A stretch of DNA of 64,000 nt, taken from an uncultured Lachnospiraceae bacterium. Lineage in GTDB: Bacteria > Bacillota > Clostridia > Lachnospirales > Lachnospiraceae. A program made the translations under genes and the position numbers. Each line of letters opens with the position of its first letter. The stretch's first letter is position 1. The DNA lies in contig CAJTSD010000010.1 in NCBI GenBank assembly GCA_910578795.1, positions 10,898-74,897 of the forward strand, written 5' to 3'. Under the pieces are notes generated by a model. The model saw nothing but the letters and a program-made list of their open reading frames with translations. It did not search any database and was not told the DNA's origin. Of this stretch, positions 29,157 through 60,999 are shown in pieces.

Positions 29157-29229
29157 GCGATAGTGGCGTAGTTGGTAACGCGCGACCTTGCCAAGGTCGA
29201 GACCGCGGGTTCGAGCCCCGTCTATCGCT
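29157..29229 (+). tRNA. tRNA-Gly (anticodon GCC)
   Basis: Hand-folded cloverleaf. Acceptor GCGATAG/CTATCGC, D arm GCGT/ACGC, anticodon stem CGACC/GGTCG with loop TTGCCAA, T arm GCGGG-TTCGAGC-CCCGT. No encoded CCA. Confidence 0.9.
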
Positions 29230-29233
29230 CTAT

Positions 29234-29259
29234 AAAAGCCTAGAGTTTCTAGGCTTTTT
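29234..29259. terminator. bidirectional terminator shared by tRNA-Gly and integrase
   Basis: aaaagcctag / ctaggctttt hairpin. The integrase stop codon (29249-29251) lies inside the stem. Confidence 0.7.
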
Positions 29260-30295
29260 CTTTTATATGTTGCATTTCATGTTGCATATCTTCAAAATGT
29301 GTCAGTGTCATGTTGGTATATTTTTCCTCATAATCCTTAATTGTGCCTCGATATATTGCTTTTAGTGTCTTATCCGAAGACCAGCCACCGCGCTGCATGA
29401 TATACTGGTCAGGAACGCCGATTGCATGCATAATGGACGCCGCATAGTGGCGCAGGTCATGGAAGCGGAACGCAGGTACGTCAAGCCGTCGAAGCGCACG
29501 CATGAACCTATGTGTGATTTGATCAGGATTGAGATTGACAATACGTCCTTCAGCAGGGCACTTGTCTATAACAAATTGCGGCATTTCTATTGTACGTGTG
29601 CTTGATACGGTTTTGGTGGTTTTGATTACCCAGTCATCAGAGCCACTGTCCACCATAGCACGTCGCACTGTAATTGTATTTCCGTCAATATCCCCGGTTT
29701 CCAGCCCGCAGACTTCGGAGCGCCGCAATGTACCAAACGCTGCAAGATAAACTGCAAGCTCCATATCCGGATCATTCTCGCTGAAATATTCTATTAAAGT
29801 TTTAATATCGCTGTCAGAGGGGACATATAACTTATGCGGTATGCTTTGGGGCAGTGTAATCCGCAGGCGTATATCCGGTGCAAAAGTGTCCAGCACTGCC
29901 CTGATCAGCCCGTAAGCGTTTTTGACAGTTTTAGGGCTGTGATCTTTTGCGAATCCGTTTACCCAGCGTTGGATATCATCATTGGTTATCTCACTTAGCC
30001 GGATATCTTTAATATCAGTATAATTATAGTTTTGCGCCCTTCGGTATTCGCGGATAGTGGACGGTGAGAGTACGTTGTTCTTCAAATCACAGTAATTTCC
30101 GATAGCAGTATACAGAGTATATTCAGGAAGCGTTTTTTTCTTTTCTTCCTTTTCCATTATGTACTGCGTTGCTTTATATTCCGCTTCTTTTTTGGTTGGA
30201 GCCGTAAAAGATTTGTATTTCCTTTTTCCGTCCTCCATGTGGTCAAATATCAGGCAGCGGTACGCGCCTGATGGTAGTTTTTTAGCTGTTGCCAT
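29249..30295 (-). CDS. int: phage integrase (tyrosine recombinase)
   Basis: 348 aa. N-terminal SAM-like domain. Catalytic residues in LRRSE, HDLRHYAAS, GGWSS...KAIY. Confidence 0.9.
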   Translation of the reverse strand: MATAKKLPSGAYRCLIFDHMEDGKRKYKSFTAPTKKEAEYKATQYIMEKEEKKKTLPEYTLYTAIGNYCDLKNNVLSPSTIREYRRAQNYNYTDIKDIRLSEITNDDIQRWVNGFAKDHSPKTVKNAYGLIRAVLDTFAPDIRLRITLPQSIPHKLYVPSDSDIKTLIEYFSENDPDMELAVYLAAFGTLRRSEVCGLETGDIDGNTITVRRAMVDSGSDDWVIKTTKTVSSTRTIEMPQFVIDKCPAEGRIVNLNPDQITHRFMRALRRLDVPAFRFHDLRHYAASIMHAIGVPDQYIMQRGGWSSDKTLKAIYRGTIKDYEEKYTNMTLTHFEDMQHEMQHIKEKA

Positions 30296-43762: not shown

Positions 43763-44161
43763 ATGAACATAAAGGATTTCAAGAAGGGTCAGACTGTTTA
43801 TATTCTTGATATACACAAAGGCCGGAATACGGAACCGACAATATACAAAGCCGTTGTGGACAGCGCTGGGAGAAAATATGTCACAACAGACAGAGGCGGA
43901 AAATATGAAACTTCCAACGATGAATACAGTCTGACTGAACATACCGGCTGTGGCAGCAGGACATATCTCTGCCCAAGCATGGAATATGCACAACTGTATA
44001 TTGAGCGTGAGGAACTGAAAATGTGGCTTTATAATATGCCGCACCTGAACAGGAAATATACACTGGATCAGCTCAGGAAGGTAAAGGAGATACTGGACGG
44101 AGAAATAAACAAAGGAGCTGACAGCCAATGCACATATCAAAACACGCCAGGCAGCGCATGA
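43763..44161 (+). CDS. hypothetical protein
   Basis: 132 aa. SD AAAGGAGAGG. Confidence 0.5.
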   Translation: MNIKDFKKGQTVYILDIHKGRNTEPTIYKAVVDSAGRKYVTTDRGGKYETSNDEYSLTEHTGCGSRTYLCPSMEYAQLYIEREELKMWLYNMPHLNRKYTLDQLRKVKEILDGEINKGADSQCTYQNTPGSA

Positions 44162-44415
44162 AAGAACGCTGCGGATTTAATAAAAAATCGCAGGAACGCA
44201 TGTCGAAGAAAGCGCTTGAGTGCGGAATAACCCACGCATAGACCAAAGGCAGGCTGAACAAATGGATAACAAGCCTGTTCTTCAAAAATACCAATGCGAA
44301 CAATATACGGATATACGGCGACAATGCATATATATTTTGTAGAGAAACACTTGTCACTGTCATTCCCGTTCCCGCTAATATAAAGAAAGACATGGACAAA
44401 ATGATAAGGAGATGA
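44128..44415 (+). pseudogene. small DUF4258-like phage ORF interrupted by an in-frame TAG (pseudogene or read-through gene)
   Basis: AAAGGAG lies 10 nt upstream of the ATG at 44128. 37 codons, then TAG at 44239-44241, then 57 further open codons with no internal start. It ends at TGA 44413-44415, overlapping the next gene's ATG (ATGA). Confidence 0.55.
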
Positions 44416-45070: not shown

Positions 45071-46087
45071 ATGAACACAAAAGAAAGAGTAAGAAATAAT
45101 ATACTTGTTGGGATGAAAATGCACCTTGATATATGCACAATGGCAGTACTGGATGCAGTTATAGTGAAAGCAGTGCAGAATGTGGAGATAACAGAAACAT
45201 CCACTCTTCCGGCGACGTTTGATGATACAAACAGATATATAATGAGTCTGTTTGACACAAAGAAAGCTCCGAAACTAAGCCCGAAAACAGTGGAATATTA
45301 CAAAAGCACCCTGAATGAGTTCGTGGCACTTATAAATAAGCCGCTTAACAAAATCAGTGAGTCGGACGTTGAGTATTATTTGTTAACCAAGAAACCAAGC
45401 AACACAAACGCATCGCTGAACAATCTCCGCCGCAACCTGTCAGCGTTCTTTAACTGGATGCGGAAAGAGAAGATAATAAGCGAAAATCCCTGCGACGGAA
45501 TAGAGCCATACGCGGCAGTCGAAAGACCGATTGACCATATGGAAGCTACGGACGTGGAGAAACTTAAACTTGGGTGTATACATAAACGGGACAGGGCATT
45601 GATAGAATTTATGAGGTCGACGGCAATAAGGAGAGGAGAAATTCCGCTTGTAAAAGTCTGCGATATAGATTTCAGAAGCGGAAAGCTGATAATATTCAGC
45701 GAAAAGACACAGAAATACAGAACCGTTTTTCTTGATGATGTTGCAATACATTATATACAGGAATATTTAAAAGACAGGGGAATAACAGAGGGCAGCAGGG
45801 AACCGCTGTTCACATATCTACGGGGAGATAAAACAAAGGCACTGGATGTTGACGGGATATACGCAAGTATAAAAGATATAGCTAAAAGGGCAGGAATGGG
45901 CAGGCGTGTATATCCGCATCTTTTCAGGAAAACGACCGCAACAAACATCTGCAGGCGCGGAGGCAGCGAAGACGCGGCAGGGGAATATCTTGGACATGCT
46001 CCAAGAAATGTAACGGGAAAACATTACACATACAAAGGAGACAGACATATTGAGCAGATATTCCATAATTATGTAGAGGCAGTATGA
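45071..46087 (+). CDS. second tyrosine recombinase (XerC/D / phage integrase family)
   Basis: 338 aa. RRGE, HLFRKTTAT, GHAPRNVTGKHY catalytic blocks. SD GGAGGGAAG. Confidence 0.88.
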   Translation: MNTKERVRNNILVGMKMHLDICTMAVLDAVIVKAVQNVEITETSTLPATFDDTNRYIMSLFDTKKAPKLSPKTVEYYKSTLNEFVALINKPLNKISESDVEYYLLTKKPSNTNASLNNLRRNLSAFFNWMRKEKIISENPCDGIEPYAAVERPIDHMEATDVEKLKLGCIHKRDRALIEFMRSTAIRRGEIPLVKVCDIDFRSGKLIIFSEKTQKYRTVFLDDVAIHYIQEYLKDRGITEGSREPLFTYLRGDKTKALDVDGIYASIKDIAKRAGMGRRVYPHLFRKTTATNICRRGGSEDAAGEYLGHAPRNVTGKHYTYKGDRHIEQIFHNYVEAV

Positions 46088-49822: not shown

Positions 49823-51751
49823 ATGCTTACGGATAAACAGTTAGAATATATCAGCGATGCGCTGGTACCGTTGTTTCAGTATCTTGAGAGCGAGGTTATT
49901 GCAGATGTGACGCAGAGGGTAAAAGCGACAATGGCATATACAAGAACAGCAGAGCAGCAGGCACAGGCGCTTTACCAGTTGGGCTACAGTCCGGCGTGCA
50001 TCAGGAAAGAAGTCATGAAAAAACTCAGAGCGGATAAAGAGTTTCAGAAAATTGTAGCGCAGAATACGCTTGAACACAAAAAGACAGTCAAAGAGCTTTT
50101 GAAAAAAATAAGAAAAGAGGCAGGAAGGGGAGGAGAAAGACTATTTGCAGATGCGGGCAATTTAAGCTTCCTTGACGATCTGCGTGTATGGGAGCCTGGA
50201 CATAAGCCGATTACAGGCAGTTCTTTTCTGCCAAAACTTGAAAAAGCAATGGAGGAGCAATTAAAGGGTGAAGTGAGCAACCTGACAAAAACGACGGGTT
50301 TCAAGACTGTGGCAGGTATGGAACCGCTTGAGAACGTGTACAGGCGCGAATTAGATAAAGCTATGATAAAAATAACATCAGGCACATTTTCACAGGAGCA
50401 GGTTTTGTATGATGTGATTCATAATCTTGCACACAGCGGTCTTAGAACAGTTGATTACGGAAGCGGGCGGACAATGCAGCTTGATACGGCGGTGCGCGTT
50501 GCGGTAAGAACGGGTACACATCAGCTCATGGGAAAGATAGCCGAACAGAGTATCAGGGAAACAAATACGAATATGGTATACGTATCCTCACATTGGGGAG
50601 CACGTAATAAAGGGACGGGACACGCCAACCATGCACAGTGGCAGGGGAAAGTATACACCATAGGCGCAGACATGGCAGCAGGGGCAGCCCAAAAAGAGGC
50701 GGAGCGCATCGGGCAGTTCGGAATAGGCGACTTATGGGAGGCGACGGGATACTGTATGGACGGAAAACACGAGAATGATCCGTTGGGATTGTACGGATAT
50801 AACTGCCGCCACAGGATATACCCGTGGTTTGAGGGCATTTCCTCCCTTCCTGACGAAGATCCGGAGCCCGACCCCATAACCATTGATGGAAAAGAATATG
50901 ATTACTATGCGATGTCGCAAAAGCAGCGTGCCAAAGAAAGTAATATTCGCGCTCTGAAACGGGAACGTGAAGCGATGCAGAAACTCGATATGGACACAAC
51001 ACAGGTGCAGAAAAAGATAAAGGAGAAAATCAGGGAGTACGAGGAATGGTGCAAAAAGTACAAAATGCCTGAAAAGTACAACAGAATACGTTATGATAAC
51101 GGGACAGGTGAATATAAAAAAACAAAGGCGTGGAAAGAGTACGAAGCGAAGCATAAAGCAGATATGGAAAGTACGGGAAGCGTTGCTGAAGCAGAGTTGC
51201 AGAAAATAGTTTCTAATGATAAAATAGTTTTGACAAAAGAAATTCAAGAAAAGGCGGATATGATAAAGCCTATGGATATCACAAAAGAGTGGACAGAGGT
51301 AAAACGGATAAAAGGATCCATTATTGAAAAACAGGAATATACGATTGATGGCGTAACATATAAAGTGGACGGAAGACATATTATACTTCATCCGACTAAG
51401 CAGGAAAGAGCTGTTGCAACAATATTAAGTGAAAAATATGGTAAAGTTGTTGAATTTGTTCCGCAAGTATTATTTCCACAAGGGGTACAAACGCCGGATT
51501 ATTTAATAGATGGTTCGCGGTATGATTTAAAGACACCAACAGGAAGCGGAAAGAATTTATTATACAGTTTATTATCAAAAAAAAGAAAGCAATCGCCAAA
51601 TTTCATCTTGGATATTACAAATTGTCCATTAGATAAGGACGAAATAGTACAACAAATTGATGGTATTTTTGCGTCAAGGCATACAAGGTTTGTAGAAATA
51701 ATAGTCTTAATAAAAGACAGTGAGATAATAAGTGTATTTGGCAAAAAATGA
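49823..51751 (+). CDS. MuF/SPP1 gp7-family head morphogenesis protein with C-terminal PD-(D/E)xK nuclease-like toxin module
   Basis: MuF core (HWGARNKGTGHANHAQWQGKVY, GYNCRHRIYPW). The C-terminal ~140 aa contain EFVP...TPDYLIDGSRYDLKTP (PD at 51494-51499). Confidence 0.8.
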   Translation: MLTDKQLEYISDALVPLFQYLESEVIADVTQRVKATMAYTRTAEQQAQALYQLGYSPACIRKEVMKKLRADKEFQKIVAQNTLEHKKTVKELLKKIRKEAGRGGERLFADAGNLSFLDDLRVWEPGHKPITGSSFLPKLEKAMEEQLKGEVSNLTKTTGFKTVAGMEPLENVYRRELDKAMIKITSGTFSQEQVLYDVIHNLAHSGLRTVDYGSGRTMQLDTAVRVAVRTGTHQLMGKIAEQSIRETNTNMVYVSSHWGARNKGTGHANHAQWQGKVYTIGADMAAGAAQKEAERIGQFGIGDLWEATGYCMDGKHENDPLGLYGYNCRHRIYPWFEGISSLPDEDPEPDPITIDGKEYDYYAMSQKQRAKESNIRALKREREAMQKLDMDTTQVQKKIKEKIREYEEWCKKYKMPEKYNRIRYDNGTGEYKKTKAWKEYEAKHKADMESTGSVAEAELQKIVSNDKIVLTKEIQEKADMIKPMDITKEWTEVKRIKGSIIEKQEYTIDGVTYKVDGRHIILHPTKQERAVATILSEKYGKVVEFVPQVLFPQGVQTPDYLIDGSRYDLKTPTGSGKNLLYSLLSKKRKQSPNFILDITNCPLDKDEIVQQIDGIFASRHTRFVEIIVLIKDSEIISVFGKK

Positions 51752-52223
51752 AAAGCCATTTATCCGATTGGTCAACTGTTCAAAGAACAGGACATTGGAA
51801 TCAGCAAATGACTTTTCCTCATTTATATTATACCAATAGTGAAACAATTATGCAAGAAATTTACTTAAGTTGCTGGAAAATTGCGGGAAATTGTGATATT
51901 AGTTTTGAGGAGGTATTGCCATGAAAAAAGAACATGGAGAATTTATTGTTGATGACAGACCTGACTTGTCAGTATTTGATATTTTTTTTCTGAATCAGAG
52001 AAAAAAAAGAACTGTATGAAACCGTTGAACAAAAAGAAAAAGAGTATGGCGAGCGTAGAAAAAATATGACAAAAGAAGTGAAGCATGTGAAAAACATAAT
52101 ATTGAAATTGAACAGATATTTGAGCAGTTTAAGGACAGGACATTGAAAAGGCAGCAAAATACTGCAACGGCATAGTTAAAAAAATAAAGGAAAAAAGTCT
52201 TGCAATATTGCAATAACTTTATG

Positions 52224-52252
52224 TTGCAAATAAACGGGAATTTGTATATAAT
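52224..52252 (+). promoter_or_regulatory. consensus promoter of the KTR moron
   Basis: TTGCAA, 17-nt spacer, TATAAT, preceded by the 14-bp palindrome TTGCAATATTGCAA (52200-52213). Confidence 0.55.
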
Positions 52253-52303
52253 GAATTTGTAGCAAACATACATTCCAAATAAATAAATAAAGATGGTGGC
52301 AGA

Positions 52304-52465
52304 ATGCAGAAGGAATACTGGTACGGATGCCCGAACTGCGGATTTCCCAAAATGCTGAAATACCTTGACAGTACCAAGATCATCAATTTCCCCGGGTATT
52401 GTAAAAGATGTAAACGGGAAGCCATAATAACAATAGAGCCTAAGAGCCGGATAGTGAATCATTAA
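52304..52465 (+). CDS. cysteine-rich KTR-type small protein (53 aa)
   Basis: MQKEYWYGCPNCGFPKMLKYLDSTKIINFPGYCKRCKRE...: a CPxC...CxxC zinc-ribbon pattern of the Cys-rich KTR family. Not in the ORF track because it is shorter than 60 aa. Confidence 0.6.
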   Translation: MQKEYWYGCPNCGFPKMLKYLDSTKIINFPGYCKRCKREAIITIEPKSRIVNH

Positions 52466-52490
52466 ATTGATTGACGTTCGGCTCTTTTTT
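52443..52490 (+). terminator. terminator after the KTR gene
   Basis: agagccg / cggctct stem enclosing an inner hairpin, followed by TTTTTT. Confidence 0.5.
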
Positions 52491-53165: not shown

Positions 53166-54035
53166 ATGCCAAACACAATTGCATTAGCAAAAAATTACAC
53201 AAGTTTACTTGACGAGGTATACCGAAATGCCTCTGTTACGGCAGATCTCACATCAGATCCTGCAATGTCAAGAGCGGGCGCAAATGCAAACGAAATCATA
53301 TACCCGCAGATATCTGTGACAGGTCTTGGCGATTATGACCGTAACAGCGGATATACCACAGGTGCGGTAGACCTGAAATGGCAGACAGTGTCATTCAATT
53401 ATGACCGTGGCACCAAGATATCGGTAGATGTAATGGACAATGAGGAATCAAGAAACCTTGCGTTTGGAATGGCGGGGGCAACGCTTATGAGGGATAAGGT
53501 TGCGCCGGAGGCGGATGCCTTCACGTTTGCAACGATTTCAGGAATTGACGGTATTACAAAAACAACAGGAACCATTGCAGGTCCGCAGCAGTTTCTTGAA
53601 GCGCTTTTAACGGCGTGGTCAGAGATGGATGAGGACGAAGTACCGCAGGAACAGAGAATGCTTTACGCGACAGCCACACTGCTCAACAGCGTCATGTCGC
53701 TGGATACGACAAAATCAAGGGAAATTCTTGCAAAATTTGCAGTAAAAAAAGTAGTACCGCAGGCGCGTTTTTATACTGCGATAGACATGATGGATGGAAA
53801 GACTGCCGGTGAGGAATTAGGGCACTATAAGAAGTCCGATGCAGGCGCAGACATTAACTTTATGATACTTCACAAGCCCGCAATTATTAAATTCGACAAG
53901 CACACCGCAAGCAACATTATCCCTGCGGCATCAAATCCGGATGCAGATGCGGATATCATCAAATATCGTAAATACGGACTTGTAGATGCATATAAAAACA
54001 AGCGTGCCGGAATTTACGTGAGCAGCAAAGCATAG
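53166..54035 (+). CDS. major capsid protein
   Basis: 289 aa. Position after the scaffold gene. SD AAAGGAG. Confidence 0.75.
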   Translation: MPNTIALAKNYTSLLDEVYRNASVTADLTSDPAMSRAGANANEIIYPQISVTGLGDYDRNSGYTTGAVDLKWQTVSFNYDRGTKISVDVMDNEESRNLAFGMAGATLMRDKVAPEADAFTFATISGIDGITKTTGTIAGPQQFLEALLTAWSEMDEDEVPQEQRMLYATATLLNSVMSLDTTKSREILAKFAVKKVVPQARFYTAIDMMDGKTAGEELGHYKKSDAGADINFMILHKPAIIKFDKHTASNIIPAASNPDADADIIKYRKYGLVDAYKNKRAGIYVSSKA

Positions 54036-56046: not shown

Positions 56047-56544
56047 ATGGCAGAGATGAGAGAAAAACTAATGCATTTTTTTAATATCGGTTCTGCAGAT
56101 ACACCGGACTACGTGCTTTTAGGTGACGGCATTACATCGCTTACGGAGGAATTTAACCCGGAAAGCGAAACAAAGCAGTACATCAATCAGGCAAACGGTA
56201 CGACAAACATAAAATCGTACACGCCGTCAATCAGCGTTGAAAAGGAATATATCAGGGATGAAAAACTGCAGAAGTGGATAGACAAAAAAGTAAAGCTTCT
56301 TCCTGTAGGAACGGCAGCGCAGTCGGACTATGTAAGAGTAAACATCATGGAGGAACCCACATCATCCGGTGTGTATCCGGCAGTTAAGAGAAAATGCTCT
56401 TATCAGCTCGACAACATCGGAGGAGATGCCGGATCGGAGTTGAAAAGCTCCATGACGCTTGGCGGAGTTGGAGACGGAATACAGGGATTTTTTGATGTTA
56501 CCAAAATGACATTTAGTGAGAGTGATACGGAAAGCGGAATCTAA
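56047..56544 (+). CDS. major tail (tube) protein
   Basis: 165 aa. Last gene before the chaperone pair. SD AAAGGAGAAA. Confidence 0.65.
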   Translation: MAEMREKLMHFFNIGSADTPDYVLLGDGITSLTEEFNPESETKQYINQANGTTNIKSYTPSISVEKEYIRDEKLQKWIDKKVKLLPVGTAAQSDYVRVNIMEEPTSSGVYPAVKRKCSYQLDNIGGDAGSELKSSMTLGGVGDGIQGFFDVTKMTFSESDTESGI

Positions 56545-56559: not shown

Positions 56560-56910
56560 ATGGATAACAGCAGTAATACAGTAAAAAATGCAGGGATAGA
56601 CGGAAGCATACGTATCAAAAGCAGTCTCCGTATAAATGTGAATGATGAGGGCGATGTCATACTTATTCCGGTAGAAGACACACAGTTTATTGAGGATTTC
56701 TTCAATATGCTTGACAAATTCACAGAGGCAAGCAGGAATATCAAGTCGAAGACGGCGGGCAAAGATGTATCAGAACAGGTAAAACCTGTTGCTGAGGAGA
56801 TGCGCGGCATGATGACGGAGCTTGATAATCTGTTTGGAGAAAGATGCTGCCGAAAGGTATTCGGGAATATTGTGCCGACACCGTATATTATGGCTGATTT
56901 CTTTGACTAG
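56560..56910 (+). CDS. tail assembly chaperone (short form); possible extension to 57060
   Basis: 116-aa acidic protein between the tube and tape-measure genes. It ends at TAG 56908-56910, and the same frame stays open for 49 more codons. Confidence 0.6.
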   Translation: MDNSSNTVKNAGIDGSIRIKSSLRINVNDEGDVILIPVEDTQFIEDFFNMLDKFTEASRNIKSKTAGKDVSEQVKPVAEEMRGMMTELDNLFGERCCRKVFGNIVPTPYIMADFFD

Positions 56911-57077
56911 ATTACGCCAATCCTGCACAAATACGCGAATGACAGGCAGTCAAAAATTGCAGAAAAATACAACAGGAACCGTACAGGAGGCACAAATCCT
57001 GTATATAATCCTCAGAACAGCCATAAGAACAGTCACAAGAATAGAAAAAGCCACCATTAGCAGAAAGAAGCGGTAAT

Positions 57078-57668
57078 ATGTTCAATGTGCTATTAGACAG
57101 GCTTCCGGACAAATGGCGCGGATACAGAATAGAAGCAGAGTTCCGGACGGGCATACAGATCATGCAGTGCCTTTCAGATGAGGAGTTTCCAAAAGAAGAA
57201 AGACTGCTTCATGTTTTAACTCTTTTATTTCCCTGTGGTATGCCCGAAACAGAGGAGGCGCTTGAAGGGCTTAAATGGTTTTTGAGCGAGTTTTCCCATG
57301 ACAACCACAGTGAAAAGAGTGAAACAGACAATGTGAAGGTATATGATTTCGACATAGACCAATGGAGGATATACAGCGCATTTCTGAATCAGTATGGAAT
57401 AGATCTCAACACAGCGAAAATGCATTGGTTTACTTTTATGGGGCTTTTGTCAAATCTTGAGGAATGCGCGTTTACGAGGGTGGTTGATATACGCATCAGG
57501 AAACCGGATAAAAGGGCAGGCACAAAAGAAAAGAGAGAGCTTGAAAAGATAAAAGAGGTGTACAGGATCGGGGATAAGGATGCGCATCTGACACCGGAGC
57601 AAAAACGCGCAGAACAGAGACAGCTTGAAATATTCAATAATTTTATGAATGCAGGTAAAAAACAATAA
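57078..57668 (+). CDS. Gp15-family phage protein (tail assembly)
   Basis: N-terminus MFNVLLDRLPDKWRGYRIEAEFRTGIQI is typical of the Gp15 family found upstream of the TMP in A118-like phages. Confidence 0.6.
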   Translation: MFNVLLDRLPDKWRGYRIEAEFRTGIQIMQCLSDEEFPKEERLLHVLTLLFPCGMPETEEALEGLKWFLSEFSHDNHSEKSETDNVKVYDFDIDQWRIYSAFLNQYGIDLNTAKMHWFTFMGLLSNLEECAFTRVVDIRIRKPDKRAGTKEKRELEKIKEVYRIGDKDAHLTPEQKRAEQRQLEIFNNFMNAGKKQ

Positions 57669-57756
57669 TGCAGCAAGAGCCAAGAGCCGCGCAGACAGTC
57701 CGCAAAGGACTGCTGAAAGGCTCTTTGTTTTTTGTTAAGCTGCAGAAGGCGGACAC

Positions 57757-60700
57757 ATGGCAGGCAGATACGACGGTTCGATAAGGATTAATACATTACT
57801 GAATACAGATAATTTTACAGGCGGCGTCAGAAACATGCGCAATGATGTGAATAGACTTGGCAGGAGTATTGCCGGAGTCAGAAGCAGCTTGGGCGGGCTG
57901 GTCAAGTCACTTGGTGTAGGTTTGAGTATTGCAGGGATTGTTGCGCTTGGAAAACAGGCAATCGAAACGGCAAGTGACATTGCGGAAGTTCAGAACGTTG
58001 TAGACACAGCATTTGGCAGCATGTCGTACAAAATGGAGGCATTTGCGGATACAGCGGTAAAGCAGTTTGGCATATCAAAATTATCCGCTAAAGAAATGGG
58101 CTCTACGTTTATGGCAATGGGGCGCGCTATGGTGGACAGCATGGAAGATGCAAGCGACATGGCGATCAACCTGACGGCGCGTGCAGCGGACATGTCAAGC
58201 TTTTACAATAAAAGCGCGGAAGAAACTGCCACAGCATTAAAGTCTATTTATACGGGAGAAACGGAAACATTAAAAGCCTACGGCGTGGTAATGACGGAAA
58301 TTAACCTTCAGGAATACGCATACAGGCAGGGTATAAAAAAGAAAATATCCGCAATGACGCAGGCGGAAAAAGTGCAGCTGCGTTACATGTATGTAATGGA
58401 GCAGACAGCGCTTGCGGAAGGTGATTTTGCAAAGACATCAGACAGCTGGGCAAATCAGACAAGAATTTTAAAAGAACAGTTTAAAGAGCTGCTTTCCGTT
58501 GCAGGTACAGGGCTGATTACCGTATTAACACCTGTTGTCAAGTTTCTTAATACCATTCTCACGCAACTGATTGCGATAGCAACACAGGCAGGCGCCATAT
58601 TATCCAAACTGTTAGGAATATCCATACCGGTGGCGGATTCGGAAAAATTTGCAAAGGATTTATTTGATGCGTCGGGCGGGGCAGATGACCTGACAGAGAG
58701 CATCGAGGCAGCAGAAAAAGCAGCAAACAAAGCACTGGCACCATTTGACAAACTAAATGTATTAAATAATGACAATGGAAGCGGTGTCAGTTCAGGAAGC
58801 AGTGGCAGCAGTTTTGAAATGCCGAAACTTGAGATGAATGAAACAGAGGCTGTTGATGAACTGGACGAAAAAGCAGAGAAAATAAAAGACATACTTGGTC
58901 GTCTGTTTAATCCGTTTCATGAAGCGTGGGAAAACGAAGGCGAATTTGTCATTGAATCATGGAAGTATGCGCTGGGTGAGATTTCAGAGCTGTTGAAACG
59001 GCTAGGAATAGACTTTCTACGGGTATGGGATACATCGGAAACAATCACCATACTTTCAGACATTTTACACATTATCGGCGATATCGGTCTTATTATAGGG
59101 CATTTGGCGAGAAACTTTCGGGAAGCATGGACAGAAAACGATACAGGTTATAAAATCCTCTGCCACATACGGGACATTATTGGCGTCATTATCGGCAATA
59201 TAAGGGACGCAGCAGACTATACGGCGGAGTGGGCAGATAAACTTGATTTTTATCCGTTGCTCTCAAAAGGTGAGGAATGGCTGGAAAGTCTGATACCTGT
59301 TATTGATACATTGTCCGGAATTTTGACAGATTTTTATACAATGGTTCTGCTTCCGCTTGCAAAATGGAAGCTTGAAAAAGGCATTCCGGGTCTGCTACAG
59401 GTTTTTATTGACTTTAATAACGAGGTGGACTGGGAAAAATTAAGAGCCAATATGCAGGAATTTTGGGAGCACTTAGAGCCGTTTGGTGAAACTGTGGGTG
59501 AGGGTTTAATACTCTTTATTGACAGATGTGCGGATGCACTTGCAGATTTCATAAACAGCGATGGATTTGTGGATTTTCTGCACCTGATAGAAGGATGGAT
59601 GGACAGTGTCGAGCCGGAGGATGTTGCAGACGGCTTGGAGAAAATTGCAAAGGGCGTAATTGCTTTAAAAGCCGGATTGAAAGCATGGAGCATACTGAAA
59701 GTACCTTTGAACCTGTTTGGGTCTTTTCTGAGCCTGCTTGAAACGCAAAAGATTACAAAGGCTTTGAAGAATTTGGGCGGCGCAGGGGGAGCCGCCAAAT
59801 CCGGTGGCGTTTTGGCTAAAACACTGGCTTCGTTTGGAGGCAATAAAGGTATTTTGGCGGGATTAAAAAGTCTTTTAACAATGGATTTGGCTACTACGTT
59901 TGGTGCCGGCACTGCTGCTGAGATTGGAATGACAATCGGTACGGGAATTATTGGTAGTATTGCGGCAGCCCTTGCGGGTGGGCTAGAGGCTAAATTTTTA
60001 GACAAATATGTTTTAGGACCGATAATAGGGCTTTTTGACAAGGAAACAGGAGACTTTTACAAAAATTTTAAATGGTTTGGCGAAAACGGTTTTTTTGATA
60101 CGATAATTCCCGATACAACGAGCATGGATACGTTTGTATCGGATTTGAAGACGAATTTAACAGCTATCCAAAATATGATAACCGATTTTCAGGATAATCC
60201 CGTATTGGGGAAACTTACATTAGTCCTTGCGGGACCGTGGGCAAAAGCAGCGCTTGACATACTAAACCATTTGGGCGACATGAAAGGTGCACTTAAGGAT
60301 TTTGGTAAGGACGTGGAATCATGGTGGGACACGGACATTGTAGGCGCATTCTCCTTATGGGGACAGGATATCAATGCTTTTTGGGACGAAAGCATTGCAC
60401 CGTGGTTCAGAAAAGAAAAATGGACGCAATTTGGCGAAAATATGAAATCCGGAATTTCCGAAAAATGGACGGAGTTTACAGGCTGGTGGAAAGGCACAGG
60501 ATTCTATAATTGGTGGAATGAAGATGTTGCATCGTGGTTTGAAAAAGATAAATGGTCTTTTAATGGAATAAAAGATGGTCTTGAAAGTTCTTGGGATGCG
60601 GCAATTGCTGCTGTTAAAAAAATATGGAACAAATTCGCGGGCTGGTTGAATGACAAATTGACATGGACGATTGATCCAATTTCCGTAGCGGGAAAAACGG

Positions 60701-60999
60701 TTTTTGAAGGTACAAAGATTAGTCTGGGAAAAGTGCCGATGCTTGCGGACGGCGCAGTAATACGCGGCGGTAATCCATTCATGGCAGTATTGGGCGATCA
60801 GCCCAAAGGTGTTACAAACATAGAAACACCGCTTCCTACAATGGTACAGGCATTCAAACAGGCAATGGCAGAAAGTGGCGGCATGGGAGGCGGAGAATAT
60901 ACGTTTATTGCACAGCTAAATGAAAAAGTCATATTTGAAGAAATGATACGACTTGACCGCATGCAGAAAAAGTCAACCGGACGCAGCAGTTTTGCATGA
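57757..60999 (+). CDS. tail tape measure protein
   Basis: 1080 aa. Helical N-terminal TMP core, Gly/Ala-rich hydrophobic centre, repeated W-rich C-terminal segments. Confidence 0.9.
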   Translation: MAGRYDGSIRINTLLNTDNFTGGVRNMRNDVNRLGRSIAGVRSSLGGLVKSLGVGLSIAGIVALGKQAIETASDIAEVQNVVDTAFGSMSYKMEAFADTAVKQFGISKLSAKEMGSTFMAMGRAMVDSMEDASDMAINLTARAADMSSFYNKSAEETATALKSIYTGETETLKAYGVVMTEINLQEYAYRQGIKKKISAMTQAEKVQLRYMYVMEQTALAEGDFAKTSDSWANQTRILKEQFKELLSVAGTGLITVLTPVVKFLNTILTQLIAIATQAGAILSKLLGISIPVADSEKFAKDLFDASGGADDLTESIEAAEKAANKALAPFDKLNVLNNDNGSGVSSGSSGSSFEMPKLEMNETEAVDELDEKAEKIKDILGRLFNPFHEAWENEGEFVIESWKYALGEISELLKRLGIDFLRVWDTSETITILSDILHIIGDIGLIIGHLARNFREAWTENDTGYKILCHIRDIIGVIIGNIRDAADYTAEWADKLDFYPLLSKGEEWLESLIPVIDTLSGILTDFYTMVLLPLAKWKLEKGIPGLLQVFIDFNNEVDWEKLRANMQEFWEHLEPFGETVGEGLILFIDRCADALADFINSDGFVDFLHLIEGWMDSVEPEDVADGLEKIAKGVIALKAGLKAWSILKVPLNLFGSFLSLLETQKITKALKNLGGAGGAAKSGGVLAKTLASFGGNKGILAGLKSLLTMDLATTFGAGTAAEIGMTIGTGIIGSIAAALAGGLEAKFLDKYVLGPIIGLFDKETGDFYKNFKWFGENGFFDTIIPDTTSMDTFVSDLKTNLTAIQNMITDFQDNPVLGKLTLVLAGPWAKAALDILNHLGDMKGALKDFGKDVESWWDTDIVGAFSLWGQDINAFWDESIAPWFRKEKWTQFGENMKSGISEKWTEFTGWWKGTGFYNWWNEDVASWFEKDKWSFNGIKDGLESSWDAAIAAVKKIWNKFAGWLNDKLTWTIDPISVAGKTVFEGTKISLGKVPMLADGAVIRGGNPFMAVLGDQPKGVTNIETPLPTMVQAFKQAMAESGGMGGGEYTFIAQLNEKVIFEEMIRLDRMQKKSTGRSSFA

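What the first reader, a model, noticed from the sequence alone, without database searches (positions are those of the whole stretch)
56560..57076. The tail-chaperone long isoform cannot come from a -1 frameshift: the frame stays open across TAG instead
Long-tailed phages normally make two chaperone isoforms (G and G-T) by a programmed -1 frameshift in the gene between tail tube and tape measure. Here the chaperone-position ORF ends at TAG 56908-56910. The -1 frame is closed, with stops at 56823, 56826, 56895 and 56904. The zero frame continues for 49 more codons (ITPILHKYANDRQSKIAEKYNRNRTGGTNPVYNPQNSHKNSHKNRKSHH) to a second TAG at 57058-57060. The +1 frame is also open (56822-57076). A long isoform would therefore need amber read-through or a +1/-2 shift. 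This is the second in-frame TAG with apparent coding continuation in this prophage (see 44239). Stop-codon read-through replacing the conserved chaperone frameshift is, to my knowledge, not an established mechanism.
Basis: partly seen in the sequence, partly recalled or inferred. Interest (0 to 1): 0.7.

Follow-up and report, generated by a model that had tools for sequence, protein, structure and literature searches.

The report
Amber nonsense mutation in prophage tail-chaperone gene
The in-frame TAG is a single C-to-T change that turned a conserved glutamine codon into a stop in one clonal prophage lineage, cutting short a gene that is one uninterrupted reading frame in all relatives, so it is an ordinary broken (or at most leaky) gene and not a new recoding mechanism.

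Summary
The sequence facts are all correct: TAG at 56908-56910, a closed -1 frame, 49 further open zero-frame codons to TAG 57058-57060, and an open +1 frame. The interpretation does not hold.

- **The gene is normally uninterrupted.** It belongs to family DUF6673 (PF20378), whose members are single ORFs of about 130-190 aa. Only the zero-frame continuation is homologous to the family.
- **The TAG is a point mutation.** All 17 full-length homologues have Gln at that column. The closest relative (96% nt identity) has CAG there, so the change is one C>T transition.
- **It is confined to one clone.** Every TAG-bearing contig is 100% identical to the window.
- **No chaperone frameshift exists here.** The next gene (Gp15, PF06854) has its own ATG and lies in any of the three frames in relatives.
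- **The second TAG (44239) is the same event.** It is also CAG>TAG in a normally intact 95-aa gene.
- **TAG is not reassigned.** It ends 11 of 41 phage genes, including a complete major capsid gene, and no tRNA-CUA is in the window.

Best reading: a recent nonsense mutation in a probably defective prophage. Suppression by a tRNA encoded outside the window is not excluded, but it is unlikely.

The parts
56560..56907 (+). Codons 1-116 of the DUF6673 gene (putative tail assembly chaperone). This is the part still translated.
   Evidence: ORF. It matches Pfam DUF6673 and phrog_11299. The exact 116-aa product is called on 11 contigs read, from several samples.
56908..56910 (+). Premature amber codon TAG, derived from CAG (Gln117) by one C>T transition.
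   Evidence: Relatives at 96% nt identity have GAC CAG ATT where the window has GAC TAG ATT. Gln is invariant in the 17 full-length homologues of alignment A3.
56911..57060 (+). Orphaned 3' part of the same gene: codons 118-166 plus the native TAG stop at 57058-57060.
   Evidence: Zero-frame translation aligns to the conserved C-terminal motif PIL.KYANDRQ.KIAEKYNRNR of homologues. It extends the Pfam and PHROG matches. Against the nearest relative, pN/pS is 0.034/0.142 here and 0.022/0.130 upstream.
56822..57076 (+). +1-frame open stretch. It is a chance ORF, not coding.
   Evidence: A +1 fusion product does not extend the family match (21.6 bits, match ends at residue 105). Substitutions relative to L005 fall mostly on zero-frame third positions.
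56047..56544 (+). Major tail tube gene (context).
   Evidence: phrog_3099 at 1e-48 and phrog_820 'major tail protein'. The syntenic gene in Roseburia phage Jekyll is annotated 'major tail tube protein'.
57078..57668 (+). Gp15-family gene (PF06854). It is an independent second gene between the tube and tape measure genes.
   Evidence: Pfam 1.2e-30. It has its own ATG. In 10 related lineages it lies in frame -1 (4), 0 (3) or +1 (3) relative to the DUF6673 gene.
57757..60999 (+). Tape measure protein gene (context).
   Evidence: phrog_1535 at 1e-113.
44128..44415 (+). Second amber-interrupted gene, a 95-aa family (phrog_16724). TAG at 44239-44241 replaces CAG (Gln38).
   Evidence: Searches show the frames. 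Homologues are 95 aa with ITHAQTKGRL. Relatives read GCG CAG ACC where the window reads GCA TAG ACC. Downstream of the TAG there are 11 synonymous and 0 non-synonymous differences.

Best explanation
The TAG at 56908 is a recent, lineage-specific nonsense mutation (CAG Gln117 to TAG, one C>T transition). It sits in a gene that is normally a single uninterrupted ORF of about 166 codons. That gene is the DUF6673-family protein encoded between the tail tube and tape measure genes of a siphovirus-type prophage of a Lachnospiraceae host.

**Shown**
- The ancestral state is CAG.
- The downstream 49 codons are the homologous C-terminus.
- The mutation is confined to one clonal prophage lineage.
- TAG works as a normal stop elsewhere in this phage.
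- No programmed frameshift is conserved in this gene pair.
- A second gene (44128-44415) carries the same kind of lesion.

**Inferred**
- Ribosomes terminate at 56908 and release a 116-aa fragment. The fragment lacks half of helix 4, all of helix 5 and the most conserved motif.
- This probably abolishes function.
- It may also weaken translation of the weakly initiated Gp15 gene, because the upstream stop now lies 167 nt rather than 17 nt before its ATG.
- The prophage is therefore probably defective in tail assembly.
- Any residual read-through by near-cognate tRNA-Gln (my own knowledge of UAG miscoding) would restore the wild-type residue. The allele could therefore be leaky rather than null.
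For: - **Family match.** The read-through product matches DUF6673 positions 11-109 of 114 at 29.7 bits, against 22.4 bits for the truncated form. It also matches phrog_11299 positions 16-142 of 152.
- **Homologues.** Twenty homologues were found, and every one that spans the column has Gln at the TAG position and a conserved tail.
- **Family size and length.** There are 570 representative clusters. Of the 150 best, 144 match to profile position 132 or beyond.
- **Ancestral codon.** Relatives L005-L012, 96-97% identical, have CAG.
- **Clonality.** TAG-bearing contigs L001-L004 are 100% identical to the window over 3.5-6.4 kb. Every contig with the window's exact tube protein that reaches the stop carries the 116-aa allele. 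The Gln-restored version of this haplotype is not in a 15-billion-protein collection.
- **Structure.** In the AlphaFold model, residue 117 lies inside helix 108-123, where pLDDT is about 92.
- **TAG as a stop.** TAG terminates 11 of 41 phage genes, including the major capsid gene, which is complete against phrog_422.
- **No suppressor found.** No tRNA with a CUA anticodon is found by ARAGORN or Rfam in the window or in the 2.6 kb beyond it.
- **A functional relative.** The cultured Roseburia phage Jekyll has the same gene order with an intact 155-aa ORF annotated as tail assembly chaperone.
Against: - **No relaxed constraint.** Neither TAG is followed by signs of relaxed constraint: pN/pS is 0.24 after 56908 and 0 after 44239, the latter with 11 synonymous and 0 non-synonymous differences. 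This fits a very recent mutation, but equally fits continued translation.
- **Both lesions are the same type.** Both in-frame stops are CAG>TAG. A simple codon-count model gives about 1-6% for that coincidence, and 12-24% for 'both TAG'. This is a post-hoc figure.
- **No other lesions.** No gap-filling TAA or TGA was seen in the prophage, and no frameshift was noticed in the genes checked.
- **The allele is widespread.** It is fixed in a strain seen in more than ten sequencing runs from several projects.
- **Incomplete sampling.** The rest of the host genome and the right end of the prophage could not be searched for a suppressor tRNA.
Confidence: 0.8

Rival explanations
1. Amber suppression. 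A tRNA-Gln with a CUA anticodon, encoded outside the window in the host or in the unsampled prophage end, reads both TAGs as Gln. Both genes would then stay functional, possibly as a switch on late-gene expression like that of code-15 gut phages.
For: - Both in-frame TAGs sit at Gln positions, and there is no sign of decay downstream.
- No other lesions were seen in the prophage.
- The coincidence of two CAG>TAG events has about 1-6% probability under neutral models.
- Relatives carry tRNA genes (Met, Arg) just upstream of the scaffold gene.
- TAG-to-Gln recoding with suppressor tRNAs is documented in gut phages (PMC9523058, PMC10879173, PMC11210395).
Against: - There are only 2 in-frame TAGs in 41 genes. 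TAG ends 11 phage genes, including the capsid gene.
- No tRNA-CUA is in the window, in the tRNA slot used by relatives, or in the next 2.6 kb.
- All relatives use CAG.
- The TAG alleles occur in a single clone.
- CAG>TAG is the commonest transition route to a stop in this genome: 235 CAG codons against 88 CAA and 28 CGA.
Confidence: 0.07
2. Leaky nonsense allele. Basal read-through of UAG by normal tRNA-Gln(CUG) restores a small amount of wild-type protein, enough for an assembly factor needed in sub-stoichiometric amounts. The prophage would remain weakly viable.
For: - The ancestral residue is Gln, so miscoding by tRNA-Gln would regenerate the wild-type sequence.
- Both TAGs are followed by A.
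- The region 56900-57020 folds more stably than shuffled sequence (z = -3.3), and the mutant U at 56908 adds one pair to a stem with 56948.
Against: - Nothing is conserved in relatives that would mark a read-through signal, because they have no stop there.
- Basal read-through in bacteria is usually well below 1% (own knowledge).
- The structure lies in ordinary coding sequence shared with intact relatives.
Confidence: 0.1
3. A +1 or -2 ribosomal frameshift into the ORF 56822-57076 makes a long isoform.
For: The +1 frame is open for 84 codons and ends 1 nt before the Gp15 ATG.
Against: - The +1 translation has no family similarity.
- Homologues continue in the zero frame.
- Substitutions follow zero-frame codon positions.
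Confidence: 0.01
4. Sequencing or assembly error at 56908.
For: It is a single-base difference from the relatives.
Against: The same base is present in independent assemblies from many runs and in an NCBI MAG.
Confidence: 0.01

Closest known systems
Premature amber (nonsense) mutations in prophage genes / cryptic defective prophages
   Same: A single-base change of a sense codon to a stop in an otherwise intact structural gene. It is restricted to one lineage, and relatives keep the sense codon.
   Different: Both lesions in this prophage are CAG>TAG, and no other decay is visible. The inactivation, if that is what it is, is therefore very recent.
Lambda G / G-T tail assembly chaperones made by a programmed -1 frameshift (Xu et al. 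2004, as cited in PMC10885494)
   Same: The genes lie between the tail tube and tape measure genes. The predicted fold matches proteins annotated as tail assembly chaperones.
   Different: There are two independent genes with separate starts, no conserved frame relation and no slippery site. PMC10885494 notes that the frameshift is not present in every tailed phage.
Code-15 (TAG to Gln) recoded gut phages with suppressor tRNAs (PMC9523058, PMC10879173, PMC11210395)
   Same: TAG stands where relatives have Gln, in late-region genes of a gut-bacterial phage.
   Different: Only two such codons are present. TAG is still a frequent true terminator, including in the capsid gene. No suppressor tRNA was found, and close relatives are not recoded.
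Roseburia phage Jekyll (LR596902) tail module
   Same: The order is the same: tube, 155-aa 'tail assembly chaperone' (a distant DUF6673 relative), a roughly 205-aa protein, then the tape measure gene.
   Different: Jekyll's gene is intact. Identity to the window protein is only 24%.

Membership tests
DUF6673 (PF20378) / phrog_11299 | Sequence match above Pfam's gathering score over most of the profile | tested here: met
   Met only when the TAG is read through: 29.7 bits against a 24.5 cut-off, profile positions 11-109 of 114. The 116-aa product alone scores 22.4 bits, below the cut-off.
Lambda-type G/G-T chaperone pair with programmed -1 frameshift | Position between the major tail and tape measure genes | tested here: met
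   The order is tube 56047-56544, DUF6673, Gp15, then tape measure 57757-60999.
Lambda-type G/G-T chaperone pair with programmed -1 frameshift | Second ORF overlaps the end of the first in the -1 frame, and this relation is conserved among relatives | tested here: not met
   Gp15 has its own ATG. Across 10 lineages its frame is -1 (4), 0 (3) or +1 (3), often with stops in between.
Lambda-type G/G-T chaperone pair with programmed -1 frameshift | Slippery heptamer (X XXY YYZ) near the end of the first ORF | tested here: not met
   At the true gene end the sequence AAT AGA AAA AGC gives no in-frame heptamer. In L013 the -1 frame is closed by TGA directly before the ATG.
Lambda-type G/G-T chaperone pair with programmed -1 frameshift | Chaperone activity on the tape measure and tube proteins | not testable with these tools
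   Only annotation-level support: Foldseek hits to 'tail assembly chaperone' entries in BFVD, E = 3e-6 to 5e-3. There was no PDB match.
TAG-recoded (code 15) phage | Many in-frame TAGs across genes, and coding density that rises when TAG is read as sense | tested here: not met
   There are 2 in-frame TAGs in about 10,100 codons. Coding density is 0.894 with the standard code and 0.876 with TAG open.
TAG-recoded (code 15) phage | TAG not used as a terminator | tested here: not met
   11 of 41 phage genes end in TAG. The capsid gene 53166-54035 ends in TAG and is full length against phrog_422.
TAG-recoded (code 15) phage | Phage-encoded suppressor tRNA with a CUA anticodon | tested here: inconclusive
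   None in the window or in L024. The right end of the prophage and the host genome are outside the data.
Programmed stop-codon read-through | The stop codon is conserved at that position among relatives | tested here: not met
   All full-length homologues have Gln, and the nearest relative has CAG.
Recent nonsense mutation (pseudogene) | A sense codon one substitution away in close relatives, with the lesion confined to one lineage | tested here: met
   CAG against TAG. TAG contigs are 100% identical to each other.
Recent nonsense mutation (pseudogene) | Relaxed constraint downstream of the stop | tested here: inconclusive
   pN/pS downstream is as low as upstream. There is no variation within the TAG lineage that could test it.

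The most novel reading that the evidence does not exclude
The two CAG>TAG codons, both at Gln positions, would be conditionally suppressed by a tRNA-Gln(CUA) encoded elsewhere in the host or in the unsampled prophage end. One lies in the gene before the packaging module and the other in a tail-assembly gene. This would be an incipient, two-codon version of the TAG-to-Gln late-gene lock known from heavily recoded gut phages, here in a temperate Lachnospiraceae siphovirus.
Probability: 0.05. Interest if true: 0.7.

Novelty: already known. Interest (0 to 1): 0.15.

Why it matters
As it stands, the finding matters mainly for annotation.

- The 116-aa call and the 167-nt 'intergenic gap' are two halves of one gene.
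- This prophage should be flagged as probably tail-defective.
- The DUF6673 + Gp15 phage group is an example of tail-chaperone-position genes expressed as two separate ORFs without the lambda-type frameshift.

Only if a suppressor tRNA were found would it become interesting. It would then be an early evolutionary step toward stop-codon reassignment in a temperate phage.

Tried and rejected
1. **A canonical G/G-T frameshift at the true gene end.** In the window, Gp15 is in the -1 frame, that frame is open from 57045, and there is an A-run at 57045-57049. I rejected this because the frame relation is not conserved in 10 related lineages and there is no in-frame slippery heptamer.
2. **A read-through fusion of DUF6673 to Gp15 in relatives where the two are in frame** (L014, L015, L019). 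The spacers are only 2-5 codons, so open frames are expected by chance, and the three stops are TAG, TAA and TGA.
3. **A -1 extension of Gp15 into the 38-aa ORF 57668-57784.** The apparent conservation there is better explained by a conserved hairpin.
4. **PDB similarity.** Sequence and fold searches for DUF6673 and Gp15 found nothing significant.
5. **Exact-pattern DNA scans for C/T alleles of this haplotype.** The viral and metagenome contig collections gave no matches.
6. **An unrecognised tRNA in the 51.7-52.5 kb low-coding slot.** Only noise-level Rfam hits turned up.
7. **Global TAG recoding.** Coding density is lower with TAG open.

Full report
**Observation.**
- ORF 56560-56910 encodes 116 aa and ends in TAG at 56908-56910.
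- The -1 frame is closed, with stops at 56823, 56826, 56895 and 56904 and four more before 57045.
- The zero frame continues for 49 codons to TAG 57058-57060.
- The +1 frame is open over 56822-57076.
- A second in-frame TAG at 44239-44241 is also real.

**Context.** The window holds about 29 kb of host DNA. A prophage follows, inserted next to tRNA-Gly(GCC) at 29157-29230, with an integrase at 29249-30295. The late region is a typical siphovirus module:
- small and large terminase, portal, minor head and scaffold genes;
- major capsid 53166-54035;
- adaptor and completion genes;
- tail tube 56047-56544;
- the gene in question;
- a Gp15-family gene (PF06854) at 57078-57668;
- tape measure 57757-60999.

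**What the gene is.** The 116-aa product matches Pfam DUF6673 weakly: 22.4 bits against a cut-off of 24.5, covering profile positions 11-71 of 114. With the TAG read through, the match extends to position 109 and rises to 29.7 bits. A +1-shifted product gains nothing. phrog_11299 is matched over positions 16-142 of 152.

A search of 5.8 billion proteins returned 20 homologues. All that span the column have Gln where the window has TAG (…ADFFDQ…). All continue with the conserved motif PIL.KYANDRQ.KIAEKYNRNR and a basic tail. A profile search of 1.84 billion representatives found 570 family clusters. Of the 150 best, 144 match to profile position 132 or beyond, with lengths mostly 130-190 aa.

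**Origin of the TAG.** The exact 116-aa protein occurs on 11 contigs read, from an NCBI MAG (GCA_949469055.1) and several sequencing projects. All of these contigs are 100% identical to the window over 3.5-6.4 kb. Every contig carrying the window's exact tube protein that extends far enough has the 116-aa allele.

The same 90% cluster contains a 166-aa member, P0142. Its contigs (L005-L012) are 96-97% identical to the window and read GAC CAG ATT where the window reads GAC TAG ATT. The lesion is thus one C>T transition in a conserved Gln codon, seen in a single clone. The Gln-restored version of the window haplotype is absent from the 15-billion-protein collection.

**The second TAG.** It is the same kind of event. 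ORF 44128-44415 belongs to a 95-aa family (phrog_16724; 183 homologues). Close relatives read GCG CAG ACC where the window reads GCA TAG ACC.

**Is there a chaperone frameshift to replace?** No. I tested whether the true gene end (57058) restores a lambda-like G/G-T arrangement. In the window, Gp15 lies in the -1 frame and that frame is open from 57045. But in 10 related lineages (Lachnospiraceae and Acetatifactor MAGs) Gp15 has its own ATG and lies in frame -1 (4 lineages), 0 (3) or +1 (3). There are often stops in between, and there is no in-frame slippery heptamer.

The cultured Roseburia phage Jekyll has the same order, with two separate ORFs. PMC10885494 notes that the chaperone frameshift, though widespread, is not present in every tailed phage.

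**How well supported is the 'tail assembly chaperone' label?** It rests on three things:
- position between the tube and tape measure genes;
- the Jekyll annotation;
- Foldseek matches of an AlphaFold model (pLDDT 76.5) to BFVD entries annotated as tail assembly chaperones, E = 3e-6 to 5e-3.

No solved structure matches.

**Consequence of the stop.** The model has a β-hairpin (residues 23-36) followed by helices 41-65, 70-92, 96-101, 108-123 and 128-142. Residue 117 sits inside the fourth long helix, where pLDDT is about 92. Truncation removes the nearly invariant residues P120, I121, R129, Q130, I133, K136 and Y137. I infer loss of function.

A polar effect on Gp15 is also possible. Its start has only a weak ribosome-binding sequence and normally lies 17 nt after the upstream stop.

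**Is TAG reassigned or suppressed?**

Evidence against:
- TAG terminates 11 of 41 phage genes, including a full-length capsid gene.
- Coding density falls when TAG is opened.
- There are only two in-frame TAGs, and no in-frame TAA or TGA fills a gap.
- ARAGORN and Rfam find only tRNA-Gly in the window. Nothing is found in the slot upstream of the scaffold gene, where relatives carry tRNA-Met or tRNA-Arg, nor in the 2.6 kb beyond the window.

Evidence that keeps it open:
- Both TAGs stand for Gln.
- There is no relaxed constraint downstream. pN/pS is 0.034/0.142 after 56908, and 0/0.311 after 44239 with 11 synonymous and 0 non-synonymous changes.
- A simple codon-count model gives 12-24% for both lesions being TAG, and roughly 1-6% for both being CAG>TAG. 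That figure is post hoc.
- CAG is by far the commonest codon one transition from a stop: 235 CAG against 88 CAA and 28 CGA.

The low pN/pS is also what a very recent mutation predicts. With zero non-synonymous changes after 44239, that stop must have arisen in roughly the last 7% of the divergence, if the tail is untranslated. This matches the clonal, zero-SNP distribution of the allele.

**Verdict.** This is a real feature with an ordinary cause: a recent amber nonsense mutation, one of two, in a probably defective prophage (confidence about 0.8). The alternatives are:
- leaky near-cognate read-through, which would regenerate wild-type protein (about 0.1);
- a suppressor tRNA encoded outside the sampled DNA (about 0.07);
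- a +1/-2 shift, or a sequencing error (about 0.01 each).

The finding corrects the annotation: one gene, not a gene plus a gap. It also shows that this phage group uses two separate genes at the chaperone position. It does not reveal a new recoding mechanism.

Noticed in passing
window 44128-44415 (TAG at 44239-44241): A second amber-interrupted gene, from a widespread 95-aa family (phrog_16724) of Lachnospiraceae phages. It lies upstream of the packaging genes. Relatives have CAG (Gln) at the TAG, and downstream there are 11 synonymous and 0 non-synonymous differences.
   Followed up: yes
window 57669-57744 (core stem 57682-57725, T-run 57726-57733): A strong hairpin followed by a U-run lies between the Gp15 stop and the tape measure start (-39.7 kcal/mol, z = -4.2). 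A hairpin plus T-run occupies the same position in at least 6 of the 8 more distant related loci and in the close relative L005, with different stem sequences. This suggests a conserved terminator or attenuator before the tape measure gene. The simple terminator scan missed it.
   Followed up: partly
window 56900-57020: The RNA after the TAG folds more stably than shuffled sequence (z = -3.3). The mutant U at 56908 pairs with A at 56948 and lengthens a 6-bp stem by one pair; the ancestral C would not pair. The significance is unknown, and the region lies in ordinary coding sequence in relatives.
   Followed up: no
window 51752-52470: A 719-nt stretch of low coding density lies between the minor head and scaffold genes. 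It holds only small ORFs, including a Cys-rich 53-aa ORF at 52304-52465. Four related phages (L015-L017, L019) carry a tRNA gene (Met-CAT or Arg-CCT), shown in L015 to lie just upstream of the scaffold gene. No tRNA is present there in the window.
   Followed up: partly
window 49823-51751: The minor head protein (phrog_581, Phage_min_cap2) carries a C-terminal region that hits the CdiA_C toxin domain (PF18451) in the precomputed Pfam list for the identical gene in L024.
   Followed up: no
window 45071-46087: A second tyrosine-recombinase/integrase-like gene (phrog_1, 1.8e-40) sits in the middle of the prophage, just upstream of the small terminase gene. It is additional to the integrase at 29249-30295 next to tRNA-Gly.
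   Followed up: no
window 57040-57080: In this lineage the Gp15 ATG (57078) is in the -1 frame of the DUF6673 gene, with that frame open from 57045 and an A-run at 57045-57049. This looks superficially like a G/G-T arrangement, but it is not conserved in relatives.
   Followed up: yes
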